Positions 77-53,372 of a DNA stretch of 64,000 nucleotides are shown here, in pieces; positions within the stretch are counted from its first letter, which is position 1; the number at the start of each line of letters is the position of its first letter. Origin of the DNA: an uncultured bacterium. Lineage in GTDB: Bacteria; Patescibacteriota; Minisyncoccia; Phycocordibacterales; Phycocordibacteraceae. The translations under genes and the position numbers were made by a program. The notes below the pieces were generated by a model. It did no database searches, was not told the origin of the DNA, and saw only the letters and a program-made list of their open reading frames with translations. The stretch spans positions 7,319 to 71,318 of the forward strand of contig CAMTWI010000003.1 in NCBI GenBank assembly GCA_947085505.1, given 5' to 3'.

Positions 77-1045
77 TTAGTTAAAGAATCTCATTGCCTT
101 CACAAAGACAGAGTCGATAAGCAGACGAAGCTCCATCGTCCAGCTCATGCCAAGCGGAACTGGCAGTGTCTGTGCTTCTAACCGGGAAACACCAGCAAGT
201 TCGATTGGTACAGATGTATCTAGAAAGAATGCGGGTGGTTCAAACGAGGTAGTAGTCGCAACTGTCGACGTAGAGGTCGATGCATTTTGTATCGAGGAAA
301 CTATTGGTGATATCAATCGCGATACTTCCTTCTCAAGCGCGTCTGATGGACGAGTGGAAGTTGCCGCGAGTGTGGTTGTCGCCAGCGAAGTAGACTTCTG
401 TGGAACCGGGGTCGTCGTGACCGGAGTCGACACCACCGGAGCCTTTGCTACCGTTGATACTGGTTTCACTGCAACCTTCGGCACGTCCTTCGTCGGTGTT
501 GCCTGCTGCGGGTAGGGCGCCGCAAAAATCTGTACCGTAAAGGTAGCGTTCTTTCCCTTGTAGGTTCCGTTAGCAACACCAATACCCACTTCGGTGAAAT
601 CAGTGCGAAGAATATTCGCTCGGTGTCCGGGAGATCCCATGAACGCATCAACAACCTGTTCGGCATCCGTACGATTCACGACGAGGTTCTCGCCGATGAT
701 GAGATATTTGTACCCTGCCTTCCCTACCCAGTGCATGGGCGTAATGCCGTCAGGCGACACGTGCGCATAGTAGCCATTTGCGGCCATATCCTGTGCTTTC
801 ATTTGAGCGGCCTCGTCGAGAAGACTGTTGCGCTGAAGCACAGGAATATCCTTCTCACTGCGTTCTTTGTTCGTAAGTATCGCAACGTCTGCTGCACTCA
901 CCGCAGCCGGATTGTGTGGAGACTCAAGAAGCGGCGCCGATATAACAGCAAGTGTAACAACACCTCCAACGAGCACGAAAAGTCCCGCAAACGGAATGAG
1001 ATTCTTCCCTAGATCAGGCTGGTGCATGATAGTTGTATAATACAA
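77..1045 (-). CDS. CAP/SCP (PR-1-like, YkwD-type) domain protein with N-terminal membrane anchor and S/T/P-rich C-terminal tail
   Basis: CAP motifs GHRANIL and HW..Y..GEN are present. An N-terminal hydrophobic segment follows an alternative start MHQPDLGK. A long T/S/P-rich low-complexity tail follows the CAP domain. Confidence 0.6.
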   Translation of the reverse strand: MYYTTIMHQPDLGKNLIPFAGLFVLVGGVVTLAVISAPLLESPHNPAAVSAADVAILTNKERSEKDIPVLQRNSLLDEAAQMKAQDMAANGYYAHVSPDGITPMHWVGKAGYKYLIIGENLVVNRTDAEQVVDAFMGSPGHRANILRTDFTEVGIGVANGTYKGKNATFTVQIFAAPYPQQATPTKDVPKVAVKPVSTVAKAPVVSTPVTTTPVPQKSTSLATTTLAATSTRPSDALEKEVSRLISPIVSSIQNASTSTSTVATTTSFEPPAFFLDTSVPIELAGVSRLEAQTLPVPLGMSWTMELRLLIDSVFVKAMRFFN

Positions 1046-1069
1046 CAGAATATATAAATTGCAACACGT

Positions 1070-2365
1070 TTAGTGCACTACTCCCAGGTGCGGAATATCG
1101 AGCGATTTCTTTCCGTCTTTGCTTGCAGGAACAAATCCACGTACAACCTTCGTTCGATATTTTGCACCAGAACCTGCAAGGGCTTCCATACTCGAACCAA
1201 GATATATGGTATTACGTCCATACCTTTGATTAACCAAGTCCTGTGCACGAAACACTCCCTCCTTCTCCTGACTCTGTGCGTACGCACCAAAGAGATCAGG
1301 AGTAACTGCATCCTCCACTCGAAGACACCGAAGTGTCACCCCGGACGCACGATACAAAATTCCTTCTGCGTACACTTCATCGAAGCGTTTACGAATAGCC
1401 CTTAGCATTTCCGGCGGCGCGTCATACGCTGCAGGTAAATCGAGCTGTACGCCGTGATACGTAAACTCCTGCGTCTTCAGATAAAAACTAAGGGCACTTG
1501 CTTTCATGCCCGCACGCCGTACCTTCGCACATGCGCCTTCAACATTCTTCGAAAGCTGCGAGAAAATAAAATCCTTATCTGTAGAAGGCGGCGTAAAGGT
1601 GCGTGTCACCATAACCGACTGTGGTTTCGCATGCGCACCTGTAGAAAGAGTAATTGCAGGATACCCCTGAAGCTCGAGCCACGTATCGCGTACGGGTTTT
1701 GCAAACCCGTGTTCCTTGAGCCAAGCATCTGACTTCTGTATATAGTCGAGTGCGGTTATAACGCCGAGCCCTCGCAAGCGCGTGGAGAGCGCACCGCCAA
1801 GTCCCCAGATATCGTAAATCTCAGTGTCGGCGAGCACTCGTTCGATGTCTTTTTTCGGAAGCGCCGTAAAGCCGGCGGGCTTGTTCCTTTTCGATGCGAC
1901 CTTAGCAAGCGTCTTTGACGGCGCGAGTCCCACACCAAACGTAATCCCGAGACTTAGCTCGAGCTTCGCTTTTATCGCTTCCGCGATCTCTTCGTAGGAT
2001 TGTCCGCGACTCTCGTTCAATCCTGTGATGTCTGCGAAACATTCGTCGATACTGTACTCCTCAACCTTCGTCGTGAAGGTCTTCGCGATTGCATACATCC
2101 GCTTCGCATAGATTGAGTACGCGGTATAGTCTCCGACGAGCACGATGACACTCGGACACACTCTCCGTATCTCTTGCATGGGCATACCGCGATGCGCACC
2201 GAGCATCTTCGCTTCCTTTGAAAGCGACGTAACCGCCCCACGCTCTCCTCCCGTGACGACCGGCTTCCCACGAAGTCTATAATCCTTCGCCTGCTCAACC
2301 GACGCGAAGAACGAATCACCATCGAAATGCACAATCGCCCGAGGATACGAGCCCGACTGGTCCAT
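1070..2365 (-). CDS. Y-family translesion DNA polymerase (DinB/UmuC/ImuB-like)
   Basis: HFDGDSFFASVE matches the Y-family palm motif. The start is trimmed to ATG 2363-2365 (MDQSG...) because the ORF-track N-extension overlaps lexA. This start abuts the lexA stop at 2367-2369, giving an operon arrangement. Confidence 0.8.
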   Translation of the reverse strand: MDQSGSYPRAIVHFDGDSFFASVEQAKDYRLRGKPVVTGGERGAVTSLSKEAKMLGAHRGMPMQEIRRVCPSVIVLVGDYTAYSIYAKRMYAIAKTFTTKVEEYSIDECFADITGLNESRGQSYEEIAEAIKAKLELSLGITFGVGLAPSKTLAKVASKRNKPAGFTALPKKDIERVLADTEIYDIWGLGGALSTRLRGLGVITALDYIQKSDAWLKEHGFAKPVRDTWLELQGYPAITLSTGAHAKPQSVMVTRTFTPPSTDKDFIFSQLSKNVEGACAKVRRAGMKASALSFYLKTQEFTYHGVQLDLPAAYDAPPEMLRAIRKRFDEVYAEGILYRASGVTLRCLRVEDAVTPDLFGAYAQSQEKEGVFRAQDLVNQRYGRNTIYLGSSMEALAGSGAKYRTKVVRGFVPASKDGKKSLDIPHLGVVH

Positions 2366-2366
2366 A

Positions 2367-2972
2367 TTATTTATAGGTACGGAACGTGGACGAAACCTTC
2401 CCCACAATCTCTCCTTCCTTGGGATAGATATCGGGATACCGATCGTTCGCTGCTTCAAGATAAAACGCTTTCCCTTTCTTCCGAAGATACTTCAACGTGT
2501 AGCCATCCTCCGTGAGCGCAACAACGATGTCGCCTGGCCTGTAGTCCTGGGTGCGCTCGAAGATAACCATGTCTCCACTCTGGATCCCAGCATCCTCCAT
2601 AGAGTCTCCTTCTACCGTTAACAGATAGCTCGCGTTCGGGTTCCCGACCAAATACTCCCCAATCGAAACAGTGTCAGCTAGCTCTTCCTCCGCAGGCGCG
2701 GCGAACCCTGCGCGCACATGCCCGAGCAAAGGAATCGAGAAGAGGCCTGCTGCGGGTATGAGCTTTCCGGTCTTATCCTTTGTTACATATCCCTCTTCAA
2801 TCAACCGACTCGAGACATAGAACGCAGAGCTGCGACTTGAAAGCTTAAAAAGCGTAAGCATCTCGGTAATGCTCGGCATGCGCCGGTTCTTCCTATAAAA
2901 GGAGAGGAGTTTCTCACGTCTCTGAAGGAGTGATTCCCTACCGTTATTCATCCCTGCAGTGTATTCGAACAA
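2367..2972 (-). CDS. lexA: LexA SOS repressor (N-terminal wHTH plus C-terminal S24 peptidase)
   Basis: S24 catalytic signatures GDSM and a downstream K are present. The 201 aa length is typical. The ORF track uses TTG at 2972. An ATG at 2949-2951 is an alternative start. The SOS box overlaps this 5' region. Confidence 0.8.
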   Translation of the reverse strand: MFEYTAGMNNGRESLLQRREKLLSFYRKNRRMPSITEMLTLFKLSSRSSAFYVSSRLIEEGYVTKDKTGKLIPAAGLFSIPLLGHVRAGFAAPAEEELADTVSIGEYLVGNPNASYLLTVEGDSMEDAGIQSGDMVIFERTQDYRPGDIVVALTEDGYTLKYLRKKGKAFYLEAANDRYPDIYPKEGEIVGKVSSTFRTYK

Positions 2973-2983
2973 ACGTTCGAATA
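2962..2983. promoter_or_regulatory. LexA operator, Cheo/Gram-positive-type SOS box TATTCGAAC-AAAC-GTTCGAATA
   Basis: Perfect 9+4+9 inverted repeat with a CGAAC-N4-GTTCG core. It sits at the lexA 5' end, consistent with autoregulation. Confidence 0.7.
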
Positions 2984-2995
2984 CAAGAGAATCCC

Positions 2996-8847: not shown

Positions 8848-10584
8848 CTACCCTATAGCAATGATACGTAATCGTATCGGTTGTCCTCGTGAAAAAGTAT
8901 CTTCCTCCAAATGCGCGAGAAGAGAGATGCATTGTCCCTTCTCAAGTCGCGCACATGCGTCGCCAAGCTGACGCTTTGCGTAGAACGTCATAGCCTCTAT
9001 AGGAGCCTCCGGAAACTCCTCGTGTCCACGCCCTATCGTTAAACGAAGATGTTCCTCTGCTTTTCCAAACCAGGACACCTGCTCAAGACGCACCTCATGA
9101 AACGCAATAGAGGGTTTTGCATTACCCATACCAAACGGCGCGAGTGTCTGCAGTCGCTTCAAGACTTCTTTTGATACTGCTTCGGGTGTCATAACTGCGT
9201 CAGCACGCACCGCTTCGCGCCCGTCTTCTTTCGGGAGTGAGGCGAGTGTCCTTGCAAGTCGCTCCTCAAGATCAAATACTGCATCGGGCGCAACCGAAAA
9301 CCCTCCCGATGCCTTGTGCCCGCCAAATCCAAGAAACGTGTCACCCGCCGCGCGCATAAGCTCTACAACGTTGGTGTTCCCGGGTCCCGAACGGCATGAT
9401 CCTTTCATAGTGTCGTTGCCTTCGCGCCCCCACAAAAACACCGGGCGTCCGTATTCTTCAGCGATACCATTCGCAACAAGGCCCAAGAGTCCTGGTCTCC
9501 AATCCGGGTCCCCCATAGCAATAACAGAAGACAGTTCCTTCCCTTCCATCTTTCGCTCGAGCAGACGCTCATGCACGGCACGCGTAATCGCACCTGCTGA
9601 TGCACGCCTGGAACGATTCAAGGCCTCAAGCTTTTTCGATAACTGATCCGCTTCAGACTCACTTGTTGTTGAAAGAAGCAGGAACGCATCACGAGGATCG
9701 CCCATGCGGGACGCCGCATTGATACGTGGCGCAATCATGAAACCGACGTCTCCTTCTTCAATCTTTCCCTGATTCACCCTCGCAGCTTTGCAGAGCTTTA
9801 TAAATCCGATGCGCGGAGACTTTCGCATAACAAGAAGCCCATACGAAGCGATGACACGGTTCTCACCTGTGAGCGGCACCATATCCGCAATTGTTGAGAG
9901 ACCAGCCATATCAAGAAGCCACTTCTCCCAGCCTTCTGGAATCAAGTCGCGTCCGGGAAACCCTACCGCAAGCGTTGCACACACAAGTTTCCATGCAACG
10001 CCAGCACCACAGAGACTCTTATACGGATAGGTCTCTTCTGATCGTGCATTTGGGTTAAGAATTGCAAACGCAGGCGGCAATTCTTCCGCGGGAAGATGGT
10101 GATCGGTCACAATCACTTCCATACCAAGCTCGTTCGCTCGTGCAACGGCTTCCACGTCCGTAATACCGGAGTCAACCGTCACCACAAGCGTCACACCCTC
10201 CCCAGCAAGCTTCTCGAGTCCCGGAATATTTACCCCGTATCCTTCGTTGTGGCGATGCGGTATATAGTTCACGAAATTCGCACCGGCCTTCTTAAGAAAG
10301 TCGTGGAGCAGAACCCCGCCCGGAATACCGTCGCAATCGTAGTCGCTCCATACGGCAATCTTTTCACTGTCCCCTATCGCCGCCGCCACTCGTGCAGCTG
10401 CCTTTGGCATATCAAGCATGAGCATCGGGTCGTGGATATGTGCGTCATACGAAGGCGAGAGGAATGCTTCTGCGTCTTCCGCAGTTGTAATGCCGCGACG
10501 TGCAAGTAAGGCAGCCGTTATATCGTCATATGCCTTAAGGGCTTCGCGGACTGAATCGTCTATCGGATCATGGAGTAGGAACAT
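8848..10584 (-). CDS. recJ: single-stranded-DNA-specific exonuclease RecJ (DHH/DHHA1)
   Basis: The DHH motif VIVTDHH is present, the domain order is typical of RecJ, and the protein is 578 aa. Confidence 0.85.
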   Translation of the reverse strand: MFLLHDPIDDSVREALKAYDDITAALLARRGITTAEDAEAFLSPSYDAHIHDPMLMLDMPKAAARVAAAIGDSEKIAVWSDYDCDGIPGGVLLHDFLKKAGANFVNYIPHRHNEGYGVNIPGLEKLAGEGVTLVVTVDSGITDVEAVARANELGMEVIVTDHHLPAEELPPAFAILNPNARSEETYPYKSLCGAGVAWKLVCATLAVGFPGRDLIPEGWEKWLLDMAGLSTIADMVPLTGENRVIASYGLLVMRKSPRIGFIKLCKAARVNQGKIEEGDVGFMIAPRINAASRMGDPRDAFLLLSTTSESEADQLSKKLEALNRSRRASAGAITRAVHERLLERKMEGKELSSVIAMGDPDWRPGLLGLVANGIAEEYGRPVFLWGREGNDTMKGSCRSGPGNTNVVELMRAAGDTFLGFGGHKASGGFSVAPDAVFDLEERLARTLASLPKEDGREAVRADAVMTPEAVSKEVLKRLQTLAPFGMGNAKPSIAFHEVRLEQVSWFGKAEEHLRLTIGRGHEEFPEAPIEAMTFYAKRQLGDACARLEKGQCISLLAHLEEDTFSRGQPIRLRIIAIG

Positions 10585-33509: not shown

Positions 33510-34304
33510 TTAGAGCGTAATGGACACAGGGCAGTGGTCGGATCCGTAGATGTCCGCATGAATCTCTGCGTCTTTAACTTTAGAAGAAAGCTTCTTCGAA
33601 GTGAAAATGTAGTCAATACGCCAGCCCACATTGCGGTCGCGCGCCATCCGAAACGGACTCCACCAGGAGTAGTGGCCGTTGCCCTCTGTGAACATTCGGA
33701 ACGTATCAACGAATCCGGCTTCCTGGATTTGATCGATGCCCGCTCGCTCTTCCTTGGTATACCCGTGCCCGCCCTCGTTTGCTTTAGGGTTTGCGAGATC
33801 GTCTGGGGTATGTGCGACGTTCAAATCACCGCAGAAAATAACGGGTTTCTCCTCTTCAAGACGCTTCATATAGGTAAGGAAAGCAGGGTCCCATTTATCG
33901 TGGCGAAGACCAAGTCTGGAGAGGTCTTCCTTGGAGTTTGGGGTATAGACTGAGACAACCCAGAACTGACCCATGTCTGCAGCAATGATCCGACCCTCCT
34001 CGTTAGGGTCTCCGTAATCGTCGCCGGAAAGGCCGTATTCCTTGGCTATATCCTCAGGCATACCAAAGAGCACGTCCTCGGGAACCTGCTTAGTGAATAT
34101 GGCGGTGCCACTGTAGCCCTTTCGATTCTTCGCGGAATGCCAGTATTCCTCGTACTCCATGAGATCAACAGGGGATTGATGCTGCTCTGCTTTTGTCTCT
34201 TGAAGACAAATGATGTCTGGCTTCAATTGTTTTACAAAAGGCTCAAATAGGCCCTTTTTGTGTACGGCACGGATACCGTTTACGTTCCAGGAGACGATTT
34301 TCAT
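33510..34304 (-). CDS. xth: exodeoxyribonuclease III (AP endonuclease)
   Basis: N-terminus MKIVSWNVNGIRA, then ICLQETK. Conserved C-terminal SDHCPV. Confidence 0.9.
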   Translation of the reverse strand: MKIVSWNVNGIRAVHKKGLFEPFVKQLKPDIICLQETKAEQHQSPVDLMEYEEYWHSAKNRKGYSGTAIFTKQVPEDVLFGMPEDIAKEYGLSGDDYGDPNEEGRIIAADMGQFWVVSVYTPNSKEDLSRLGLRHDKWDPAFLTYMKRLEEEKPVIFCGDLNVAHTPDDLANPKANEGGHGYTKEERAGIDQIQEAGFVDTFRMFTEGNGHYSWWSPFRMARDRNVGWRIDYIFTSKKLSSKVKDAEIHADIYGSDHCPVSITL

Positions 34305-34349: not shown

Positions 34350-35258
34350 CTATGCACGCTTGGAATGAAACTTCTTATGCACCTCTCTCAAATGAGAGTC
34401 CGTTACGTGCGTATAGATCTGGGTCGTATTGATAGACGCATGACCAAGCAAGGCCTGCACAGAACGTATATCTGCGCCGTTTGAGAGGAGATCAGTTGCA
34501 AAAGAGTGCCGCATAACGTGGGGCGTTACTTTCTTCGTAATACCAGCCTTCGTGGCATAGGTCTTTATAAGGAGCTCGATGGAGCGGGGAGTAAGGCGGG
34601 TAGGGATTCTCTTCTTGGTCTCGGACTTTCGCGCGGCACTCACGAACAATGCCGGCTCCATATCTGTACGAGCCTTTAGATAGGCCCTGGTAGCGGCTTT
34701 GGCAGCGTCTGAAAGGAACACCACACGCACCTTGTCGCCCTTTCCGCGAATAGGGAAGTCATCTCTGGAGAGATCGAGATCGGAATCGAGGCTGCAAAGC
34801 TCTGAAACACGCAGTCCCGTAGAGAAGAGCATCTCGAGAATTGCCTTGTCGCGAAGCGCTTTCTCGCTCTCGCCATCCGTTGCCTTAAGTAACCGGTCGA
34901 GCTCAAGAGGGGAGATAAGGTCCAAATGGCGCTCGGGCACCTTCGCAAGCTCTATCTTCTCCGGAGAAAGTGAGGGAATGTCACGCTTCCGGAGGAACTT
35001 GAGGTACGCACGGAGCGCTATGAGGTAGTAATTCTGTGTCCGGCGCTTCATTGAGTCCTTATTCGTGCCTGGCTGGCGGTTAAGCCAGAGCCTGAATTCA
35101 CGCACTTTCTCCTCCGTTATGGCGCCAGTATCCTTAATTTGCGCGTATTCAAAGAATCGAGAGAGATAATGATCATAGTTTTCTATGGTTTTAACCGCTC
35201 TACCGCGCTCAATCTCGAGATATTCAAGGAATTGACGCTTCATCTGTACCGCATCCAT
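34350..35258 (-). CDS. tyrosine site-specific recombinase XerC/XerD family
   Basis: Catalytic tetrad R..HxxR..Y is seen in HVMRHSFAT and LGHASINTTQIYTHV. The N-terminal SAM-like domain is present. Start trimmed to MDAVQM. Confidence 0.8.
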   Translation of the reverse strand: MDAVQMKRQFLEYLEIERGRAVKTIENYDHYLSRFFEYAQIKDTGAITEEKVREFRLWLNRQPGTNKDSMKRRTQNYYLIALRAYLKFLRKRDIPSLSPEKIELAKVPERHLDLISPLELDRLLKATDGESEKALRDKAILEMLFSTGLRVSELCSLDSDLDLSRDDFPIRGKGDKVRVVFLSDAAKAATRAYLKARTDMEPALFVSAARKSETKKRIPTRLTPRSIELLIKTYATKAGITKKVTPHVMRHSFATDLLSNGADIRSVQALLGHASINTTQIYTHVTDSHLREVHKKFHSKRA

Positions 35259-35361
35259 ATAAAAAGAGTAGCATGGAGGTTCGCACAATATTCATGAGCG
35301 TCTAGGCCGCCCCACTAGGAAACACTTGCGTTTTTAATCAAGGTGTGGTAAGGTACAAGTA

Positions 35362-40094: not shown

Positions 40095-40363
40095 AAGGAG
40101 GCTTACGGCGATTAGAGCGCCAGGAATCCAGTATGTGTTAAGGTCTGCAGCCTGTGCTGTGGGACCGAAAGGTTTGTTGGGTTCAATTATAGGGGAAACA
40201 GGGGATTTTCAGCGTTTCTTCAGAATACAAAAATGGCTTAGGTAGGCCATCTCTTGCGTATCAGACAATCGTTCGATGAAGGTAGTATAAACGCTCCTGA
40301 GGTGGGGTCAACCCACTAAAAAAGAGGGTGTTGAAAGCCGATTTCGGGTATAGTTGAGGGAGC

Positions 40364-42271
40364 ATGCAGCACCTCGAAGGCTTAAACGACGCGCAACGGG
40401 AAGCCGTCCTAGCCACCGAGGGTCCGGTCTCGGTCTTGGCCGGTGCCGGATCAGGCAAAACCCGGGTTCTGACCACCCGTATCTATCATCTTATAAAGGA
40501 AGGGGTCCCTGCCGAACGCATCCTCGCTGTTACCTTCACCAACAAGGCCGCCCGCGAGATGCGCGAACGCCTCGCACACCGCCTCGGAGACAGCCCGCTC
40601 CCGTTTGTGGCTACGTTCCATGGTCTTGGGCGAGACATTCTCCAGCGATACGGCAATCGCATCGGCATCTCGCGCTATTTCACGATATTTGACCGGGATG
40701 ACTCGAAGTCCGCCATACGAAAGGTCCTGAAGGACATGGATATCGATCCGAAGGAGATGAATCCAAACTTCGTCCTGTCTCGTATCTCAAAAGAGAAGGG
40801 GGAGGGCTCAACGCCTGAAGCATTCCGAGAGAAATACGCACAGAAGAGCTTCCAATCTCGTGTTATCGCTGAAGTGTGGCCCAAGTACGAGTCGATACTC
40901 AAGAAAGAGAAGGCGCTCGACTTCGATGATCTTATTTGTTTACCCGTGCGTCTTCTTCGCGAGCATGAAGACATCCGCAAAGAAGCGGAGCAACTCTATA
41001 GCCATGTGCATGTGGACGAGTTTCAGGACACGAACGAACTGCAAGGGAAGCTCGCAGGATATCTTTCGGCCGTCCACAACAACTTATTTGTTGTGGGGGA
41101 TATCGATCAGACCATTTACACGTGGCGTGGCGCTACTATCGAAAACCTCCTCAAGTTCGAAGAGCAGTATGCAAACGCAAAGACCATCGTGCTTGCGCAT
41201 AACTATCGCTCAACAAAAACAATCGTTGCTGCAGGAAACCAAATAATTGAGAAGAATCAGAACCGTAAGGACAAGCATGCCGTAACGGATAACCCGGACG
41301 GGGAACCGATACGCCTGCATATCGCACGTAACGCGGAGAGTGAGGCTCGGTGGGTAGCGCGCGAGGCGAAGAAAACAATACGTGAAGGTGTTCCTCCTGA
41401 AGAAATCGCTGTCCTGTTTCGTACAAACTTCCAATCCCGTGCTCTTGAAGAAGCATTTCTGTCGGAAGGTCTCCCATACAAGGTCTTGGGTACACGCTTC
41501 CTCGATCGCAAGGAAGTCAAAGACGTGCTCGCATGGGTCAGGCTCGCGCTTGATCCTGAACGAGAAGTTGATCGCGTTCGTGCCGTGCAGGCACCTACCC
41601 GCGGCATAGGGAAGGTAACCCTCGGCAAGCTTATCGACGGGAAGCGTGACACCTTGAAGCCCGCAGAAGTTAAGAAAGTAGCCGCGTTCGAGAGTATTGT
41701 TATGGAATTGAACGAGCTTTCAAAGATTGCGGTGCCGAGCGAGTTCGTAAAGCTCGTGATTGAACGCTCCGGACTTGCGGAGACACTCCGGAAGGGCGGG
41801 GAAGAGGATGCAGAACGTCTTGAGAACGCGAAAGAACTCGCTACCTTAGCCAGCAGGTTTGACGGCATCCCAGGAGAAGAGGGGATTGCATCGTTTCTGG
41901 CTGAGTCTGCGTTAGCGGGAGATCAGGACGAGCTCGACGCGCCGGGGACAACCGGCATCACCCTCATGACGGTTCATGCCGCGAAGGGTCTTGAGTTCGA
42001 TACGGTTTTTGTAACCGGCATGGAACAAGGGCTCTTCCCGCATGAGGCCCGCGAAGGAGAGCAGCGAGATGAGGAAGAGGAGCGCCGGCTATTCTATGTA
42101 GCGGTTACGCGCGCAAAGCGAAAGCTTAACTTAACGCTCGCGACTGTTCGCCGTATCTACGGCACCGATTTCGCGTCGGAACCTTCGATGTTTATCCGCG
42201 ACATCGACGAAGGACTTATCACCTTCTCAGAAGGGGACGAACTCTACGGAGAGCGTACGATATACATCTAG
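40364..42271 (+). CDS. ATP-dependent DNA helicase, UvrD/PcrA family (SF1)
   Basis: Walker A AGAGSGKTRVLT, motif II DEFQDTN, motif VI VAVTRAK, and C-terminal TVHAAKGLEFD. Confidence 0.85.
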   Translation: MQHLEGLNDAQREAVLATEGPVSVLAGAGSGKTRVLTTRIYHLIKEGVPAERILAVTFTNKAAREMRERLAHRLGDSPLPFVATFHGLGRDILQRYGNRIGISRYFTIFDRDDSKSAIRKVLKDMDIDPKEMNPNFVLSRISKEKGEGSTPEAFREKYAQKSFQSRVIAEVWPKYESILKKEKALDFDDLICLPVRLLREHEDIRKEAEQLYSHVHVDEFQDTNELQGKLAGYLSAVHNNLFVVGDIDQTIYTWRGATIENLLKFEEQYANAKTIVLAHNYRSTKTIVAAGNQIIEKNQNRKDKHAVTDNPDGEPIRLHIARNAESEARWVAREAKKTIREGVPPEEIAVLFRTNFQSRALEEAFLSEGLPYKVLGTRFLDRKEVKDVLAWVRLALDPEREVDRVRAVQAPTRGIGKVTLGKLIDGKRDTLKPAEVKKVAAFESIVMELNELSKIAVPSEFVKLVIERSGLAETLRKGGEEDAERLENAKELATLASRFDGIPGEEGIASFLAESALAGDQDELDAPGTTGITLMTVHAAKGLEFDTVFVTGMEQGLFPHEAREGEQRDEEEERRLFYVAVTRAKRKLNLTLATVRRIYGTDFASEPSMFIRDIDEGLITFSEGDELYGERTIYI

Positions 42272-43138: not shown

Positions 43139-44143
43139 ATGGCTCATTCTACCCGTACACTCCGCATCGCTGCCGCTTCGTTACTAGCCGTTCTCATGGT
43201 GGGAGGTACCTATCTCTCGACCGGACCAAACCCCTTCTTCGGCCTAACACGCATCGTTGGTGCGCAGTCTTCTGAAGAACTCCTGCGCGAATATGCTGCA
43301 AAGGATAGCGACAGTGACGGGCTACCTGATTGGCAGGAAGCGCTGTACGGGACTGATCCCTTTAACCCCGAGTCGTTTAGGGTAGGTATTCTTGATGGGG
43401 AAGCGGTTGCACAGGGACTTATTGAGCCGAGAGTTACCGTGCGCGCCGAAAAAGAACCCACCGACCCAAACTCTATCCCCGGCACTGCAGGTGCTCCATC
43501 CTCTCTCACCGACCGTTTCGCTCAAACACTCCTCAAACAGTATCTTTTGAATCGTACCGGCACCCCTCCGAGCCAGGAGGAGATTGTTGCATTTGTGCAG
43601 AAAGGGGTTGCGGAGCTTTCTGCAAGTGCTGTCGAGAGAGACCGTTACACGCTTAGTGATGTTCGTGTTTCGGGAGACTCGGGAAGCGCAGCTCTTATTG
43701 CATACGCAGCGGAGGCGGAGGCGGCTATTGCAGCAAACACCGTTTCGAGCTCCATAAGTGCGCGCAACGAGCTTTCCTACTTCCAGGATGCAATACGAGG
43801 AGACGATGCTGCGCTAGCGAAGGTTTCTGCCTACAGCAAGGCCTACGCGGCAATGGGTGACGCCCTTATTCGCCTCCCGGTGCCACAAGAAGTACGTCAG
43901 TCGCATCTCACCATCGTTAACGCAACCATGCACCTAAGTAGCATGACCGCTGATATGGCAACACTTAAAGAAGATCCACTTCGAGCACTCATGGGCATCG
44001 GTCTGTATGGGAAACATGCAACGAGTATGAAGTCTGGATTTGCGAACCTAAACGGCGTGTTTAGGGCGAGACAGGTTTCCTTAACTAAAGGACAGCCTGG
44101 ATACGAGATCTTTAACACAAGCGAGTTAGCTGCTGCCCAGTAA
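43139..44143 (+). CDS. membrane-anchored protein of unknown function, first gene of T4SS-like operon
   Basis: N-terminal TM. DSDSDGLPDW is a Ca-binding-like DxDxDG motif. The rest is mostly alpha-helical. Confidence 0.4.
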   Translation: MAHSTRTLRIAAASLLAVLMVGGTYLSTGPNPFFGLTRIVGAQSSEELLREYAAKDSDSDGLPDWQEALYGTDPFNPESFRVGILDGEAVAQGLIEPRVTVRAEKEPTDPNSIPGTAGAPSSLTDRFAQTLLKQYLLNRTGTPPSQEEIVAFVQKGVAELSASAVERDRYTLSDVRVSGDSGSAALIAYAAEAEAAIAANTVSSSISARNELSYFQDAIRGDDAALAKVSAYSKAYAAMGDALIRLPVPQEVRQSHLTIVNATMHLSSMTADMATLKEDPLRALMGIGLYGKHATSMKSGFANLNGVFRARQVSLTKGQPGYEIFNTSELAAAQ

Positions 44144-44144
44144 C

Positions 44145-45599
44145 ATGACAACCTTCCGAAATAAAGCTCCCCTGGCAACCCTGCTTCTCGGAAGCCTGCT
44201 TCTGGTTTCGTGTGTCGTCGCAGCTCCGCAGACGGCACGCGCCGCTGACTACGATAGTCCTCTCCAGGTATTTAACTCGCTCGTAACGTCGCTTAGTACC
44301 GCAGCAGATAGAACGCTCAACTACATACTAAACGGACTTGCATGGGATTTGGCAAACCTTGCCATTGAATCCATGACCAAGAGTACGGTTAACTGGATTA
44401 ATTCTGGATTCCAGGGGTCTCCAGCATTCGTTACGGATCTCAGACAGAATATGCGTGGTGTTGCTGACACGATTGCGGGCCGCTTCTTTGACGAACTTAG
44501 TGAGACAAATTTTGGAAGGTCTCCATTCCAGGATCGCGTACTTGACGCAGTCCGTCTTGGGTATTATCTGCGCACAAGTCCAGAATCGTTTTATGTCCGC
44601 TATCCATATACGTTAAACCAGGTTAGTGCAGACGACCGTGCCTTCCTTCGTGGGGATTTCAGCCAGGGAGGTTTCAATGCATGGTTTGCAACCGTGATGT
44701 ACCCAGAGAACAATCCGTACGGAATGAACATCCTTCTGAACGAACAGCTTGAAAACAGGATTGGAAGCGGTCTTTCCATCCGTAGCCAGGAACTCGACTG
44801 GAGCAGGGGCTTTCTGTCGTGGAGGGGGGACTGCATTGCCACCGCACCGAATTCTGGAGCAAACAACACCCCAGTTAATCTCACGAATGAAGAACCGTGT
44901 ATAGATTACGAAGTCCTCACGCCAGGATCTGTCATACAAGAGGGACTTAACAAAGCACTCGGCGCTGGCCAAGATCGTCTTGTTGTTGCAGATGACTTCA
45001 ATGAGATCATCAGCGCGCTTTTGAATCAGCTTGTGGGCCAGGTGCTCGGAGGGAACAGTTCGGGCGGACTTCGAGGAGTATCTCGTCCAGCAACCGGAGG
45101 AGGATCCTCGTTCCTTGATCGATCCACTGATCCAACACTCAACCCTGGAAACAGCGCGAACACTGGTACCGCGTTCGCTGCAACCATTGCAGAACAGCGT
45201 TCGATTCTTGAGAGACACCAGGCTAGCTGGGAGAGGATTAGGGGTGCAGCACAAGCGGCACTCTCACGCTGCGGACCTGGTGGAGAACCGAACCCGGAGG
45301 TCGTTGTCACCCGTGCACAAGACGCACTTGTTAAGGCAGCGAACGGCATCGCAGCGTACCGCGATCTTGAGGAGCGCATCGCTGCCACTATAGCTGCTGG
45401 TGGGAACCAGACCGCTGCCATAACGCAGATTGTGAACGACTTCACAGCGCTTGGTCGCTCTGCAATGGTTCCAACAAGCGAAGAGATAGCGGAGGCGCAG
45501 ATTCAGGCGCAGGATACAGGGGACATTCGACCGGGATCGCTCTATAGCCAGATGAGTCGCCAGGCTGCAGGCAGTTGCCTTGCCGGCTCGTCTGAATAA
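44145..45599 (+). CDS. secreted protein of unknown function (signal peptide) in T4SS-like operon
   Basis: Signal peptide ...SCVVAAPQTARA. 484 aa. No recognisable catalytic motif. Confidence 0.4.
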   Translation: MTTFRNKAPLATLLLGSLLLVSCVVAAPQTARAADYDSPLQVFNSLVTSLSTAADRTLNYILNGLAWDLANLAIESMTKSTVNWINSGFQGSPAFVTDLRQNMRGVADTIAGRFFDELSETNFGRSPFQDRVLDAVRLGYYLRTSPESFYVRYPYTLNQVSADDRAFLRGDFSQGGFNAWFATVMYPENNPYGMNILLNEQLENRIGSGLSIRSQELDWSRGFLSWRGDCIATAPNSGANNTPVNLTNEEPCIDYEVLTPGSVIQEGLNKALGAGQDRLVVADDFNEIISALLNQLVGQVLGGNSSGGLRGVSRPATGGGSSFLDRSTDPTLNPGNSANTGTAFAATIAEQRSILERHQASWERIRGAAQAALSRCGPGGEPNPEVVVTRAQDALVKAANGIAAYRDLEERIAATIAAGGNQTAAITQIVNDFTALGRSAMVPTSEEIAEAQIQAQDTGDIRPGSLYSQMSRQAAGSCLAGSSE

Positions 45600-45603
45600 T
45601 TAT

Positions 45604-48093
45604 ATGCGAAAGCTCTTCAGAGCATCGCTGTTGATCACCGTACTTTCGGTGTTGCTCTTTATTACTAGCTATTCACCTACCCAGGCCCAAACAACTCTTG
45701 AACAATGTGGCTCCGCAAGCCCACCGGCGGATTGTATTTCGTATGATCCAACAATTAATCCTGTCTTGGTTAGAGAGGGGGCGAGGTATTACCAAGACTG
45801 GGGAACAAGGAGCCCTTACCAAAGCGAAAACGATGGTCTCTGCAAAGTATATGTTTCGGGTCCTGTCTTTTTTGCAGGCTGTGTAAAAGATGGACGTTTT
45901 TCCATTCAAGCTGACTATGTTATAGGGGCCCCCACTGGGGGAGAGCCCGTAACGGGTGTGCAAGTTGATCAGTCTGGGGAAGTTACCTCGCAACCAATCG
46001 AAACCTGTGGGCCAATGAACATCGGTTGTTGGCTAATTAAACTACCCGGCATGCTCTTCACGGGCATTGCATTTGTTTTCTTGCTTCTCTCAGGAATGAT
46101 CCTCGGACTCGCGGGCACAGTGTTCAACTGGGTGGTCATACGTACGGTCTTCCAGTTCGGCACGTATTTCGGCACGAACGAAGGCATGCTTATTGCGTGG
46201 GGCGTGATGCGTGACATTGCAAACATAGGCCTCCTGTTTGGTTTCATATTTATGGGAGTGCTTCTTATACTCAACGTCGATAGTGGGGGACACGGGCACG
46301 GCGGGGGTGTGAGTGCGAAGAAAGCTATACCACGCCTCATCATCTTTGCGGTGCTTTTAAACTTTAGTCTCTTTGCTTCACAGGCGGTTATCGACGTCGC
46401 AAACGCATTTAGCTCAAGCTTTGCAACGCTTGCTGGAGAAAATTGTACTGGCAACACCTCGACAGGGAGCAGTGCCACTGACAGAGCCGCCGGCATGGAC
46501 AATGAGCAATGCTCTAATGTGGGCATATCTGGGCAGATACTAAAAGTGGCTGGTCTCACGTCAATTTGGGATTCAGAAAACAGAGATGTTCAAACTGCAA
46601 TGAAGAATCTTGTCGATCGGCCCTATAGCTATGCGGTGTCCTTGATGCTGCTTTCCATTTTTGTACTCATCACAGCCATGGTGTTACTTGCGGGTTCCAT
46701 CATGCTCATTATCCGTGTGGTTATTTTGTCGCTTCTTATGGTTACGTCGCCCATAGGCTTTGCCGGCATGGCCATACCGAAGCTGCAGGGCATTGCCAGT
46801 ATGTGGTGGAGCAAGCTGATGTCGCAGGCGTTCTTCGCTCCCGTATATCTTCTTCTTATATTTATCAGTATCAAATTAACTGAGGGCCTCATGGAGGGAG
46901 AGGCGACCCTCGCCAATGCACTCATTGCGAATCAAGGAAACTCGGTGGCAGGGAACATGCAGGTGGTTATGGTGTTCATGGTTGTTATCGGATTCATGAT
47001 TGGTTCCTTGCTCGTGGCATCAAAGATGGGGGCGATGGGGGCGAAGTTTGCGACATCGGCAGTCGCAGGAACAACCATTGGTTTTGCTGGTTTTGCCGGT
47101 CGAAGGACGCTCGGAGCAGCATCAGGGAATGTTGCTAAAAGAATTGCATCGTCGAACTACGCTCGTAGCAATGGGTTTGGAAGTAGGTTCGCCTATAACA
47201 TAGCCAACAAGGGTGCTACGGCGAGCTACAGCGCTCGTACTGGTATAAATAACATCACTAAGGGCGCTGGTCTCGACATTGGCAACGCAGGGAAGAATGT
47301 AAGCCATGGAATTCATGGTATTGAGGAGGCAGAGGTGAAAAAACGTAAGGACTTTGCTGAAAAAACCCTTGCGCAGACGCCTGCAGAACAGGCTGCGGAG
47401 AAGAGACTTAAGGATGAGAAGGATCGAATAAAGCTCTATAAAGAGGCGGCCAAGGAAGAGCTCGATCGTGGAAATGAGCCTGAAGAAAGTGCACTCAAGG
47501 CACAGAAGGAGAAGCACACTGAAGCGGCAGCAGCACGTCTAAAAGACCTTAACACCAAAAAGCAGGCTGTAGCAAAGCTTGAGGCTGACGGAGTTTGGGG
47601 TAATGAGCTCGATGAGCAAAAGAAGGCACTTGCTGCCCTAGAGGAGGAGCATGAACAAGCATCTGAGATTGAGGCAGCCGATATTGCGTCTCGTCAAAAG
47701 CGAATATCTGATCGTGGCGCTCGCTTCGATAAGATTCTAAAGGATTACGACAACCGATCGAAAGAAATCGACAGAACTATCAGTGGCTACGAGTCTATCG
47801 ATAGCAGTGGGGGCATTATGTGGAACAAGGGCCTTTCTAAAGAGTCAGCACAACGTGAGTATGGGGAAGCGCTTGGCAAAGACCATGGCATGCCTCTTAC
47901 ACTGGGACACCATATAAACCAAGAGGCTTCCGCAGACATCCTTAAGAAGCTTAAGCGCAGCAAGCGCGACAAGTTGGTTGATGCAATTAAGGAGAATGCC
48001 AAGGAGGACAAAGAGGAGGACGGCGGCGGCAAGAAGGAAGAGAAGTCCAGTGGAGGCGAAAAGAAAAGTGGAGGAGATGGGGGCCATCACTAG
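45604..48093 (+). CDS. VirB6/TrbL-like polytopic T4SS channel protein with Cys-rich N-terminal ectodomain and long K/E-rich C-terminal coiled-coil tail
   Basis: A signal peptide is followed by a Cys-containing domain of about 130 aa. Then 6 or more TM helices. Then about 330 aa of charged coiled coil, ending in a Gly/Lys-rich tail. Start trimmed to MRKLFRAS. Confidence 0.55.
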   Translation: MRKLFRASLLITVLSVLLFITSYSPTQAQTTLEQCGSASPPADCISYDPTINPVLVREGARYYQDWGTRSPYQSENDGLCKVYVSGPVFFAGCVKDGRFSIQADYVIGAPTGGEPVTGVQVDQSGEVTSQPIETCGPMNIGCWLIKLPGMLFTGIAFVFLLLSGMILGLAGTVFNWVVIRTVFQFGTYFGTNEGMLIAWGVMRDIANIGLLFGFIFMGVLLILNVDSGGHGHGGGVSAKKAIPRLIIFAVLLNFSLFASQAVIDVANAFSSSFATLAGENCTGNTSTGSSATDRAAGMDNEQCSNVGISGQILKVAGLTSIWDSENRDVQTAMKNLVDRPYSYAVSLMLLSIFVLITAMVLLAGSIMLIIRVVILSLLMVTSPIGFAGMAIPKLQGIASMWWSKLMSQAFFAPVYLLLIFISIKLTEGLMEGEATLANALIANQGNSVAGNMQVVMVFMVVIGFMIGSLLVASKMGAMGAKFATSAVAGTTIGFAGFAGRRTLGAASGNVAKRIASSNYARSNGFGSRFAYNIANKGATASYSARTGINNITKGAGLDIGNAGKNVSHGIHGIEEAEVKKRKDFAEKTLAQTPAEQAAEKRLKDEKDRIKLYKEAAKEELDRGNEPEESALKAQKEKHTEAAAARLKDLNTKKQAVAKLEADGVWGNELDEQKKALAALEEEHEQASEIEAADIASRQKRISDRGARFDKILKDYDNRSKEIDRTISGYESIDSSGGIMWNKGLSKESAQREYGEALGKDHGMPLTLGHHINQEASADILKKLKRSKRDKLVDAIKENAKEDKEEDGGGKKEEKSSGGEKKSGGDGGHH

Positions 48094-48105
48094 TACAATA
48101 CTGAA

Positions 48106-48909: not shown

Positions 48910-48954
48910 AAAATAGTGCGAGTGCTCATTCAGTATCGGGTATACTGGATAGCA

Positions 48955-49362: not shown

Positions 49363-49364
49363 AT

Positions 49365-49994: not shown

Positions 49995-49997
49995 TCT

Positions 49998-51821: not shown

Positions 51822-51824
51822 CGT

Positions 51825-52328: not shown

Positions 52329-52375
52329 GATACCCCCGCGTAGGCACGCGCTCCCACACCGCTTCGGTATATACT

Positions 52376-53368: not shown

Positions 53369-53372
53369 CCCT

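What the first reader, a model, noticed from the sequence alone, without database searches (positions are those of the whole stretch)
1070..2990. SOS mutagenesis cassette: lexA with Y-family polymerase, with a perfect Cheo-type LexA box
lexA and a DinB/UmuC-like polymerase are translationally adjacent. The lexA TAA stop and the polymerase ATG are separated by 1 nt.

A perfect palindrome TATTCGAAC-AAAC-GTTCGAATA overlaps the lexA 5' end. Its core, CGAAC-N4-GTTCG, matches the Cheo-box-type LexA operator used by Firmicutes and Actinobacteria, not the Gram-negative CTGT-N8-ACAG box.

This indicates an autoregulated, damage-inducible translesion polymerase. It also supports a monoderm-type regulatory repertoire.

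The upstream HD-domain hydrolase and S2P protease lie on the same strand, but upstream of the box.
Basis: partly seen in the sequence, partly recalled or inferred. Interest (0 to 1): 0.55.

Follow-up and report, generated by a model that had tools for sequence, protein, structure and literature searches.

The report
Self-repressed LexA–translesion polymerase operon
A small uncultured bacterium (Paceibacterota, candidate phyla radiation) has a two-gene operon, a LexA repressor followed by an error-prone DNA polymerase, with a perfect Gram-positive-type LexA binding site inside its promoter; this is a familiar kind of DNA-damage switch, and every related genome examined has the same arrangement.

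Summary
On the minus strand, lexA (2951→2367, 194 aa) ends in TAA one base before the ATG of a Y-family polymerase gene (2365→1070, 431 aa). The palindrome TATTCGAAC-AAAC-GTTCGAATA lies at 2962-2983; the full arms are 11 nt, 2960-2985.

The box does not overlap the coding sequence. It fills the 17-nt spacer between a -35 (TTGTAT) and a -10 (TACACT), and the ATG follows the -10 by 6 nt, so the mRNA is probably leaderless.

In 48 Patescibacteria lexA loci:
- All 47 with upstream sequence have a GAAC-N4-GTTC box in the same promoter position.
- All 46 with downstream sequence have the polymerase gene next.
- The flanking genes differ.

A motif scan of about 0.89 Mb found no other credible site. 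A weak site upstream of uvrD is not conserved. The sampled sequence therefore shows only a self-contained cassette.

The protein has LexA architecture (winged HTH, Ala-Gly, Ser/Lys) but is divergent. The polymerase has a UmuC-type C-terminal extension, and no UmuD or YolD gene accompanies it.

Repressor-plus-polymerase cassettes of this kind are known (HdiR-UmuC, UmuDAb, Geobacter lexA-polY). A 2017 study of the Patescibacteria SOS network exists but could not be read here. DNA binding, RecA dependence and damage induction are inferred, not shown.

The parts
2981..2986 (-). -35-like hexamer TTGTAT of the lexA promoter
   Evidence: Sequence verified. The same position holds TTGAC(T) or TTGnn in most of the 48 aligned lexA promoters. 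The simple promoter scanner did not report it, so this is an inferred promoter.
2960..2985 (.). LexA operator. Perfect inverted repeat TGTATTCGAAC-GTTT-GTTCGAATACA as read on the minus strand. Core TCGAAC-N4-GTTCGA at 2965-2980.
   Evidence: The GAAC and GTTC tetramers are invariant in 48 of 48 sites. This site scores 23.6 bits on the family matrix.
2958..2963 (-). -10-like hexamer TACACT, 17 nt after the -35 and 6 nt before the ATG
   Evidence: TATACT or TACACT occupies this position in nearly all 48 loci. The distance from box end to start codon is 14-16 nt in 38 of 47 sites scored.
2367..2951 (-). lexA, 194 aa: winged-HTH N-terminal domain plus S24 self-cleaving domain
   Evidence: Pfam Peptidase_S24, 7.6e-27. 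TIGR00498 lexA matched end to end at 98 bits, below its cut-off of 111. Full-length match to T. maritima LexA 3k2z. AlphaFold2 model and Foldseek search.
2796..2834 (-). Predicted recognition helix of LexA (residues 40-52, RSSAFYVSSRLIE)
   Evidence: Third helix of the model, block pLDDT about 90. The SRSSAFY sequence is nearly invariant across 48 orthologues.
2706..2711 (-). Ala81-Gly82, the predicted self-cleavage bond
   Evidence: Invariant in 25 homologues. Coordinates verified.
2601..2603 (-). Ser117, catalytic serine (GDSM)
   Evidence: Invariant. Verified.
2490..2492 (-). Lys154, general base of the Ser/Lys dyad
   Evidence: Invariant. Verified.
2363..2369 (-). TAA-T-ATG junction: lexA stop, one base, polymerase start. 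No Shine-Dalgarno sequence.
   Evidence: In 42 orthologous loci the gap is +1 (10 loci), -4 (6), -8 (4), +3 (4). It lies within -11 to +30 in 37 loci.
1070..2365 (-). Y-family DNA polymerase, 431 aa. Catalytic Asp15 and Asp107-Glu108 are present.
   Evidence: IMS 5e-40 and IMS_C 2.7e-13. NCBIfam Pol IV models score up to 184 bits and UmuC 150 bits, all below their cut-offs. The closest solved structures are DinB/Dpo4. Conservation is shown.
1286..1303 (-). TPDLFG, probable beta-clamp-binding motif directly after the polymerase core
   Evidence: D, L, F and G are invariant or nearly so in 39 orthologues. The assignment rests on analogy with QL[SD]LF and QLPLWG motifs, so it is inferred.
1187..1246 (-). 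RecA-N-terminus-like motif (N-terminal part of Pfam DUF4113, the UmuC C-terminal extension)
   Evidence: 37 of 39 orthologues match DUF4113, best E 5e-6. The window protein gives E 0.0056 at 17 bits, below the cut-off. Interpretation follows PMC6511836.
1082..1111 (-). Conserved extreme C-terminal tail KKSLDIPHLG (family consensus KK[ST]LxIP[YFH]LG). Partner unknown.

Best explanation
This is a chromosomal, self-repressed two-gene operon of a Paceibacterota (Patescibacteria) bacterium: lexA followed by a Y-family translesion polymerase.

Proposed mechanism, in order:

1. A LexA dimer binds the palindrome TCGAAC-N4-GTTCGA. The palindrome occupies the whole 17-nt spacer between the -35 and -10 hexamers, so bound LexA excludes RNA polymerase.
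2. After DNA damage, RecA-ssDNA filaments stimulate LexA self-cleavage at Ala81-Gly82 by the Ser117/Lys154 dyad.
3. The promoter opens and a leaderless mRNA is made, starting at or next to the lexA ATG.
4. The polymerase is translated by termination-reinitiation at TAA-T-ATG.
5. New LexA shuts the operon off again.

Shown here: the anatomy, the conservation of operator, promoter geometry and gene pair, and the LexA fold and catalytic residues.

Inferred: DNA binding, RecA dependence, damage induction, the transcription start site and translational coupling.

In the sequence available, the operon is the only target of this repressor. It therefore behaves as a self-contained inducible mutagenesis/lesion-bypass cassette. 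Whether LexA controls further genes elsewhere in the genome is open.
For: Anatomy:
- Gene, junction and palindrome coordinates.
- The exact motif is unique in the window, with 0.11 expected by chance.

The repressor:
- S24 domain.
- End-to-end match to the lexA equivalog model and to T. maritima LexA.
- 29% identity over 200 residues to B. subtilis LexA, E 1e-20.
- The model has three helices plus a two-strand wing, and full-length LexA structures are the best fold matches.
- Ala-Gly, Ser and Lys are invariant in 25 homologues.

Conservation across 48 Patescibacteria loci:
- GAAC-N4-GTTC lies upstream of lexA in 47 of 47 loci with upstream sequence, always between a TTGAC-like and a TATACT-like hexamer, with the start codon 6-8 nt after the -10.
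- The polymerase gene is immediately downstream in 46 of 46 loci. The HD, M50 and CAP neighbours are found only in close relatives.
- All 48 lexA sites score 15.7-32 bits on the family matrix. Nothing else in 0.89 Mb exceeds 13.8 bits.

Leaderless reading:
- 39.5% of 344 long ATG-start ORFs in the related loci have TAnnnT ending 5-10 nt upstream, with a peak at 6 nt. Background is 6.6%. Shine-Dalgarno-like motifs are not enriched.

The polymerase:
- Catalytic residues are conserved.

Established knowledge:
- GAAC-N4-GTTC is the LexA motif of B. subtilis, M. tuberculosis and Gram-positive bacteria (PMC3323433).
- S24 repressors that control themselves plus an error-prone polymerase are documented: HdiR, UmuDAb (PMC8565304) and the Geobacter lexA-imuB-C-polY operon (PMC6511836).
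Against: - There is no experimental evidence of any kind.
- recA is not in the window or in any fetched locus, so neither its presence nor its regulation could be checked.
- The protein scores below NCBI's LexA equivalog cut-off (98 against 111 bits), and Pfam's LexA DNA-binding model does not hit it at E<=0.01.
- The generic promoter scanner did not call the TTGTAT-17-TACACT promoter.
- No second operator was found next to repair genes in the window: recJ, uvrD and an exonuclease III-like gene. The weak site upstream of uvrD is not conserved. A classical multi-gene SOS regulon is therefore not demonstrated.
- Only about 20 kb per related genome was sampled, all of it centred on lexA.
Confidence: 0.85

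Rival explanations
1. Dual-role LexA. The protein is also the UmuD-like accessory subunit of the downstream polymerase. After self-cleavage, its C-terminal S24 fragment would bind the polymerase's conserved C-terminal tail, as UmuD' binds UmuC. This would make the operon a fused lexA/umuD-umuC system. It adds to the main explanation and does not exclude it.
For: - The gene pair is locked together, often with overlapping or 1-nt-spaced stop and start codons, in 46 of 46 genomes, as in umuDC.
- The polymerase has the UmuC/YqjW-type architecture: clamp motif, RecA-N-terminus-like DUF4113 motif (37 of 39 members) and a conserved C-terminal tail.
- PMC6511836 associates this architecture with a UmuD or YolD partner that binds the tail.
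- No UmuD or YolD gene accompanies the polymerase in these operons.
- The S24 domain matches the UmuD model at 89 bits.
Against: - Canonical LexA proteins of E. coli and B. subtilis score 85 and 71 bits on the same UmuD model, so that match is not distinctive.
- The conserved tail (xLxIP[YF]L) also resembles a hexapeptide beta-clamp-binding motif.
- No interaction evidence exists.
- Three loci carry an extra small ORF between the two genes, which could be the real accessory factor there.
Confidence: 0.15
2. Global SOS repressor. This LexA controls a wider regulon (recA, uvrA/B, ruvAB, ribonucleotide reductase and others) located outside the sampled regions. The lexA-pol operon would then be only its autoregulated core.
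For: - In Firmicutes and Actinobacteria, which use the same motif, the core regulon includes recA and error-prone polymerases (PMC7739468).
- Only about 64 kb of this genome and about 20 kb of each relative were examined.
- A 2017 paper on the Patescibacteria SOS network exists (cited in PMC8565304). As I recall, without being able to check, it describes more than lexA alone.
Against: - There are no additional sites of 14 bits or more in 0.89 Mb of Paceibacterota sequence. Taking the loci as independent, that gives a rough upper bound of about 3 sites per Mb.
- recJ, uvrD and an exonuclease III-like gene in the window lack conserved boxes.
Confidence: 0.35
3. The palindrome is not a LexA operator. 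It would be an RNA hairpin or terminator of the upstream HD-hydrolase gene, or the site of another regulator.
For: An 11-bp stem with a 4-nt loop could fold in RNA, and it lies 10 nt after the HD gene stop.
Against: - No U-tract follows it.
- In most related loci the upstream gene is different or absent, yet the box keeps its exact register with the -35, the -10 and the lexA start.
- The GAAC/GTTC tetramers are invariant and do not covary.
- The sequence equals the established LexA motif of Gram-positive bacteria (PMC3323433).
- It always travels with a lexA gene.
Confidence: 0.03
4. lexA starts at the upstream TTG (2972), so the box is inside the coding sequence.
For: - The longest ORF begins at TTG 2972.
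- Several database gene models of homologues begin 'MFEY...'.
Against: - 'FEY' is simply the translation of the operator half-site TTCGAATAC.
- Most homologues start at the ATG. Residues before about position 11 are not conserved as protein, while the DNA is conserved as a palindrome.
- The -10-to-ATG spacing of 6-8 nt matches the dominant start context in this lineage.
Confidence: 0.03

Closest known systems
LexA/DinR and the Cheo box (GAAC-N4-GTTC) of Bacillus subtilis, Mycobacterium tuberculosis and other Gram-positive bacteria
   Same: - Same palindromic motif (TCGAAC-N4-GTTCGA).
- Same protein architecture: winged HTH plus S24 domain with Ala-Gly and Ser/Lys.
- Autoregulation through a box in the lexA promoter.
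- Error-prone polymerases belong to the core regulon (PMC3323433, PMC7739468).
   Different: - The protein is divergent: 29% identity to B. subtilis LexA, and it scores below the equivalog cut-off.
- lexA is co-transcribed with the polymerase.
- No recA or other regulon member could be shown.
- The promoter is probably leaderless.
HdiR-UmuC cassettes of Lactococcus lactis and Streptococcus uberis
   Same: An S24 self-cleaving repressor regulates itself and a UmuC-like polymerase. In S. uberis it regulates only the mutagenic cassette (PMC8565304).
   Different: HdiR has a phage-repressor-type N-terminal domain and clusters with phage repressors. The protein here has a LexA-type winged HTH and a LexA motif.
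UmuDAb of Acinetobacter
   Same: An S24 protein with an added DNA-binding domain represses its own and other umuDC operons. Its regulon is restricted to error-prone polymerases (PMC8565304).
   Different: UmuDAb derives from UmuD and occurs in a lineage without LexA. The protein here aligns end to end with LexA.
Geobacter sulfurreducens lexA-imuB-C-polY operons
   Same: lexA is co-transcribed with an active Y-family polymerase. The operon is damage-induced and autoregulated, and LexA does not bind the recA promoter (Jara et al. 2003, as summarised in PMC6511836).
   Different: - Different LexA motif.
- An ImuB-C gene lies between lexA and the polymerase. Here the two genes abut, except for a small unrelated ORF in three loci.
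- Different phylum.
Escherichia coli umuDC (Pol V)
   Same: - An S24 gene lies immediately upstream of, and is translationally coupled to, a Y-family polymerase gene.
- The polymerase has a C-terminal extension with a DUF4113/RecA-N-terminus-like motif and a conserved tail.
- The operon is LexA-controlled.
   Different: - The upstream protein here is a full repressor with a DNA-binding domain.
- The polymerase core scores higher on DinB models than on the UmuC model (184 against 150 bits).
- The operon represses itself.
Patescibacteria SOS network (Sanchez-Osuna, Barbe and Erill, Environ Microbiol 2017; 19:3465; pmid 28618189)
   Same: Same superphylum and same question: the LexA motif and regulon in Patescibacteria.
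   Different: The paper could not be read here. PMC7739468 cites it among cases in which LexA recognises a direct repeat. The clade and the palindromic motif described here may therefore not be what it reports. This remains unresolved.

Membership tests
LexA repressor | N-terminal winged helix-turn-helix DNA-binding domain | tested here: met
   - The AlphaFold2 model has helices 8-22, 28-34 and 40-52 followed by strands 56-58 and 64-66, with block pLDDT about 90.
- Full-length LexA structures 3jso and 3k2z are the best Foldseek matches, with 195-200 aligned columns.
- phmmer aligns residues 12-191 to T. maritima LexA.
- Pfam's LexA_DNA_bind model does not hit at E<=0.01.
LexA repressor | C-terminal S24 peptidase domain with an Ala-Gly cleavage bond and a Ser/Lys dyad | tested here: met
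   Peptidase_S24 at 7.6e-27. A81-G82, S117 and K154 are invariant in 25 homologues.
LexA repressor | Scores above the curated equivalog threshold (TIGR00498) | tested here: not met
   98.2 bits against a cut-off of 110.95, although the alignment runs end to end. E. coli and B. subtilis LexA score about 290 bits. This is a divergent member.
LexA repressor | Binds a palindromic operator in its own promoter | tested here: inconclusive
   A perfect, conserved operator-like palindrome sits in the promoter spacer in 48 of 48 sites.
LexA repressor | RecA-stimulated self-cleavage after DNA damage | not testable with these tools
   recA is absent from the window and from all fetched loci. There are no expression or biochemical data.
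LexA repressor | Controls a regulon of DNA-repair genes | tested here: not met
   Apart from the lexA sites, no site scores 14 bits or more in 0.89 Mb. The uvrD site at 12.4 bits is not conserved. Only a fraction of each genome was sampled.
Gram-positive (Cheo-type) LexA box | GAAC-N4-GTTC palindrome, usually CGAAC-N4-GTTCG | tested here: met
   CGAACAAACGTTCG at 2966-2979. Family consensus is aTCGAACAAtTGTTCGAt. Motif definition from PMC3323433.
Gram-positive (Cheo-type) LexA box | Overlaps the core promoter of the regulated gene | tested here: met
   The box lies between the TTGTAT and TACACT hexamers, and the same register holds in the orthologous loci. The promoter itself is inferred from sequence.
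Y-family DNA polymerase | IMS catalytic core plus little-finger domain with catalytic Asp/Asp-Glu | tested here: met
   IMS 5e-40, IMS_C 2.7e-13, IMS_HHH 3e-4. D15 and D107-E108 are conserved in 43 orthologues.
DinB / Pol IV (equivalog) | Scores above the NCBIfam Pol IV thresholds; no long C-terminal extension | tested here: not met
   The best Pol IV model gives 183.6 bits against a cut-off of 371. The protein has an extension of about 75 residues after the clamp motif.
UmuC (Pol V catalytic subunit) | Scores above the UmuC threshold | tested here: not met
   149.6 bits against a cut-off of 431.
UmuC (Pol V catalytic subunit) | C-terminal extension with the DUF4113 / RecA-N-terminus-like motif and a conserved tail | tested here: met
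   37 of 39 orthologues match DUF4113, best E 5e-6; the window protein gives E 0.0056, below threshold. The conserved tail is KK[ST]LxIP[YFH]LG.
UmuD | S24 protein without a DNA-binding domain, encoded upstream of umuC | tested here: not met
   The upstream protein has a full winged-HTH domain. Its score on the UmuD model (89 bits) equals that of ordinary LexA proteins.

The most novel reading that the evidence does not exclude
In this Paceibacterota lineage, LexA and UmuD may be one protein. The repressor that keeps the operon silent would, once cleaved, release a C-terminal S24 fragment. That fragment would serve as the UmuD'-like subunit of the co-translated polymerase. The polymerase has a UmuC-type extension (clamp motif, RecA-N-terminus-like motif, conserved tail) but no UmuD or YolD partner gene. 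Such a protein would be either a minimal ancestral form or a streamlined fusion of SOS control and Pol V activation.
Probability: 0.15. Interest if true: 0.65.

Novelty: new member of a known kind. Interest (0 to 1): 0.3.

Why it matters
Candidate-phyla-radiation bacteria have tiny genomes and few regulators, so any transcription factor with a confidently assigned operator is useful. This one gives three things:

- a clean, testable repressor/operator pair;
- a defined promoter architecture: -35, operator, -10, then a leaderless start;
- evidence that, after extreme genome reduction, an inducible error-prone polymerase with its own repressor is retained as one unit. This fits the published view that control of translesion synthesis is the core function of SOS-type systems (PMC7739468, PMC8565304).

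It also corrects gene starts in public annotations that translate the operator as 'MFEY'.

None of this changes current understanding. The kind of system and the motif are both known.

Tried and rejected
1. Exact look-up of the window's LexA and UvrD proteins, and of the identical database protein P0001, in the assembly index found nothing. The window's own contig could therefore not be extended.
2. The weak box-like site at 40260-40277, 86 nt upstream of a UvrD/PcrA helicase gene, looked like a second operator. In four related uvrD loci (65-81% protein identity) the flanks are conserved but the box is not. I rejected it as probably chance.
3. The other three weak matrix hits (L025, L043, L006) lie inside coding regions and were rejected.
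recA regulation could not be tested.
5. The 2017 Patescibacteria SOS paper and the Verrucomicrobia LexA paper are not held in the library. Citing papers gave only indirect hints.
7. No clear covariation was seen between the flanking operator base (TCGAAC or TAGAAC) and the recognition helix. Three of seven TAGAAC loci have SRSAA or SRGAA where the others have SRSSA, which is too few to interpret.
8. Rfam found only four tRNAs in the window.
9. The small ORF between lexA and the polymerase gene in three loci has no Pfam match.
Full report
**1. What is in the sequence**

All features of the finding are on the minus strand.

- lexA-like gene: from ATG 2951 to TAA 2369-2367, 194 aa.
- Y-family polymerase gene: from ATG 2365 to the stop at 1072-1070, 431 aa.
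- One base (2366) separates the two genes.
The repeat finder extends it to perfect 11-nt arms, 2960-2970 and 2975-2985, with a 4-nt spacer.
- It is the only exact CGAAC-N4-GTTCG in 64 kb, where 0.11 is expected from shuffles. It is also the only exact GAAC-N4-GTTC.
- It sits in the 44-nt gap between the stop of an HD-domain hydrolase gene (TAG 2998-2996) and the lexA ATG.
- Pfam assigns Peptidase_S24 to the lexA product; IMS, IMS_C and IMS_HHH to the polymerase; HD_3 and Peptidase_M50 to the two upstream genes.

**2. Organism and relatives**

The LexA protein has hundreds of close homologues. Where they are named, they come from Patescibacteria, Parcubacteria or Paceibacterota, and several are annotated as LexA. 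One scan of representative genomes returned 48 Patescibacteria loci with 61-95% protein identity. The window also carries dnaA (56954-58303) and dnaN (58516-59616). This is chromosomal DNA about 55 kb from the probable replication origin, not an obvious mobile element.

**3. The operator is conserved and sits inside the promoter**

- In all 47 related loci that have sequence upstream of lexA there is a GAAC-N4-GTTC box.
- The GAAC and GTTC tetramers are invariant in 48 of 48 sites. The family consensus is aTCGAACAAtTGTTCGAt.
- The box always lies between a TTGAC-like and a TATACT-like hexamer.
- The start codon follows the -10-like hexamer by 6-8 nt. The distance from box end to start codon is 14-16 nt in 38 of 47 sites scored.
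- In the window the arrangement reads TTGTAT (2986-2981), then the 17-nt spacer TCGAACGTTTGTTCGAA, then TACACT (2963-2958), then GCAGGG, then ATG.

A repressor bound here would occlude RNA polymerase. The transcript should start at or next to the ATG, which makes it leaderless.

This start context is not special to lexA:

- In the window, 20 of 43 ATG-start genes have TAnnnT ending 5-10 nt upstream of the start, against 5.3% at random positions. Only 3 of the 43 have a Shine-Dalgarno-like motif.
- In the 48 related loci, 39.5% of 344 long ATG-start ORFs show the same hexamer position, with a sharp peak at 6 nt. Background is 6.6%. Shine-Dalgarno-like motifs occur at 9.6%, against 10.9% background, so they are not enriched.

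- The longest ORF does start at TTG 2972.
- Some database models of homologues begin 'MFEY', but that is the translation of the operator half-site TTCGAATAC.
- The protein alignment shows no conservation before about residue 11, whereas the DNA is conserved as a palindrome.

**4. The repressor is a divergent but genuine LexA**

- It aligns end to end with the NCBI lexA equivalog model at 98 bits, below the cut-off of 111.
- It aligns with T. maritima LexA over residues 12-191.
- It aligns with B. subtilis LexA at 29% identity over 200 residues, E 1e-20.
- An AlphaFold2 model built on 25 homologues has mean pLDDT 76, and about 90 in the N-terminal domain. It shows three helices and a two-strand wing followed by the S24 beta domain.
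- The best structural matches are full-length LexA entries 3jso and 3k2z.
- Ala81-Gly82, Ser117 and Lys154 are invariant.
- The recognition helix sequence SRSSAFY is nearly invariant across the clade, in line with the invariant GAAC half-site.
- The match to the UmuD model (89 bits) is no higher than that of E. coli LexA (85) or B. subtilis LexA (71). It therefore says nothing special.

**5. The gene pair is the conserved unit**

- The polymerase gene follows lexA in all 46 loci with downstream sequence. The other two loci end at a contig edge.
- The stop-to-start distance is +1 in 10 loci, -4 in 6, -8 in 4 and +3 in 4. It lies within -11 to +30 in 37 of 42 loci.
- No Shine-Dalgarno sequence precedes the polymerase ATG in the window. 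Translation by termination-reinitiation is therefore the likely route; this is inferred.
- The HD hydrolase, the M50 protease and the downstream CAP-domain gene accompany the pair only in the closest relatives. They are not part of the system.

**6. The polymerase**

- Catalytic Asp15 and Asp107-Glu108 are conserved.
- All NCBIfam Pol IV and UmuC models match below threshold: best Pol IV 184 bits, UmuC 150 bits.
- The nearest solved structures are DinB/Dpo4.
- After the core come three further elements:
  - a conserved xxDLFG (355-360), which looks like a beta-clamp motif;
  - a segment (374-393) that matches the N-terminal part of Pfam DUF4113 in 37 of 39 orthologues;
  - a conserved extreme C-terminal tail, KK[ST]LxIP[YFH]LG.
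- Timinskas and Venclovas (PMC6511836) identified the DUF4113 segment as a RecA-N-terminus-like motif. It is shared by UmuC, YqjW, UvrX and ImuB. They associate the conserved tail that follows it with binding of UmuD' or YolD.

The enzyme thus has a DinB-leaning core with a UmuC/YqjW-type C-terminal architecture. No UmuD or YolD gene is in the operon.

**7. Extent of the regulon**

- A matrix built from the 48 sites was scanned over the window plus the 48 loci, 0.89 Mb in all.
- All lexA sites score 15.7-32 bits. Only four other hits reach 12-13.8 bits.
- Three of those four lie inside coding regions.
- The fourth, at window 40260-40277, lies 86 nt upstream of a UvrD/PcrA helicase gene. In four related uvrD loci the flanking sequence is conserved but the box is not. 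It is probably chance.
- recJ (8848-10584), uvrD and an exonuclease III-like gene (33510-34304) have no box.
- recA is not in any sequence I could obtain.

On present evidence the operon is the repressor's only demonstrated target. Treating the loci as independent, the rough upper bound is about 3 further sites per Mb.

**8. Comparison with what is known**

- GAAC-N4-GTTC is the LexA motif first described in B. subtilis. It was later confirmed in M. tuberculosis and extended to Gram-positive bacteria (PMC3323433).
- Self-cleaving S24 repressors that control themselves and an error-prone polymerase are documented (PMC8565304):
  - HdiR, which in S. uberis regulates only a mutagenic cassette;
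  - UmuDAb.
- A lexA-imuB-C-polY operon is damage-induced in Geobacter sulfurreducens, and its LexA does not bind the recA promoter (PMC6511836).
- A dedicated paper on the Patescibacteria SOS network exists (pmid 28618189) but is not held in the library. One citing paper lists it among cases of direct-repeat LexA motifs. I cannot tell whether the palindromic motif and the clade studied here are covered.

I therefore class the finding as a new, well-supported member of a known kind.

**9. Most novel reading still open**

LexA may also be the UmuD-like partner of its polymerase.

In favour:
- invariant tight coupling of the two genes;
- a UmuC-type extension on the polymerase;
- no UmuD or YolD gene in the operon.

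Against:
- the conserved tail also resembles a hexapeptide clamp-binding motif;
- three loci have an extra small ORF between the genes;
- nothing could be modelled here.

I put this at about 15%.

**10. Verdict**

- the box is in the promoter spacer, not in the gene;
- the mRNA is probably leaderless;
- no wider regulon is shown.

DNA binding, RecA dependence and damage induction remain inferred. The finding is ordinary in kind and of modest interest. The lineage-wide leaderless start context seen in passing may be the more useful lead.

Noticed in passing
whole window; L001-L048: Gene starts look leaderless and lack Shine-Dalgarno sequences. In the window, 20 of 43 ATG-start genes have a -10-like TAnnnT ending 5-10 nt upstream of the ATG, against 5.3% background. 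In the related loci the figure is 39.5% of 344 long ORFs, with a peak at 6 nt, against 6.6% background. SD-like motifs are at or below background. The searchable library held no paper describing this for Patescibacteria.
   Followed up: partly
L014:10554-10751, L015:10554-10739, L020:10554-10706: A small conserved ORF of 50-65 aa (MAKL..F.PFF..Y.RT...FASFTE.ER.YL.PK...) lies between lexA and the polymerase gene in the C7867-007/-008-like clade. Its ATG overlaps the lexA stop (ATGGCTAA) and its stop overlaps the polymerase start. It has no Pfam match. It could be an accessory factor of the polymerase.
   Followed up: partly
window 40260-40277: A weak LexA-box-like site, ATCAGACAATCGTTCGAT (12.4 bits), lies 86 nt upstream of a UvrD/PcrA helicase gene (40364-42271). 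It is not conserved in four related uvrD loci and is probably chance.
   Followed up: yes
window 40208-40250; also L051-L054 upstream of uvrD: A conserved intergenic block, TTCAGCGTTTCTTCAGAATACAAAAATGGCTTAnnTAnGCCAT, ends in a hairpin (ATGGCTTAGGTAGGCCAT, 40233-40250). It lies between the divergent M23/LysM peptidase gene and uvrD. It is retained in relatives whose UvrD is only 65-81% identical. Rfam has no match. Its function is unknown.
   Followed up: no
window 56954-59616: dnaA and dnaN are adjacent, so the window lies next to the probable replication origin. The dnaN product is the likely clamp partner of the polymerase's DLFG motif.
   Followed up: no
window 43139-55603: A same-strand run of ORFs mostly lacks Pfam matches: 43139-48093 (including an 837-aa protein) and 52376-55603. 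They surround a TraG/VirB4-like P-loop ATPase gene (49998-51821). This may be a secretion, conjugation or pilus-like module. A tyrosine recombinase gene is at 34350-35288.
   Followed up: no
protein models P0008, P0051, P0063, P0120; window ORF starting at TTG 2972: Several public gene models of these LexA proteins start 'MFEY...'. That is the translated operator (TTCGAATAC), so their start codons are probably called too far upstream.
   Followed up: yes
L018 and L020 (both from MAG RYN_396, JAQBRJ01): One metagenome-assembled genome carries two different lexA-polymerase cassettes on two contigs. Each has its own box. This is either a paralogous pair or two strains binned together.
   Followed up: no
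window 1037-1064 (minus strand): A promoter-like TTGCAA-16-TATTAT lies directly after the polymerase stop codon, and an ATG at 1027 follows the -10 by 9 nt. The downstream CAP-domain gene probably has its own leaderless promoter. No terminator-like site lies between it and the polymerase gene.
   Followed up: no
L007, L008, L011, L028, L035, L041, L047: These loci have the operator variant TAGAAC-N4-GTTCTA in place of TCGAAC-N4-GTTCGA. Three of the seven LexA proteins have SRSAA or SRGAA in the recognition helix where the others have SRSSA. This may be protein-operator covariation, but the sample is too small to judge.
   Followed up: partly
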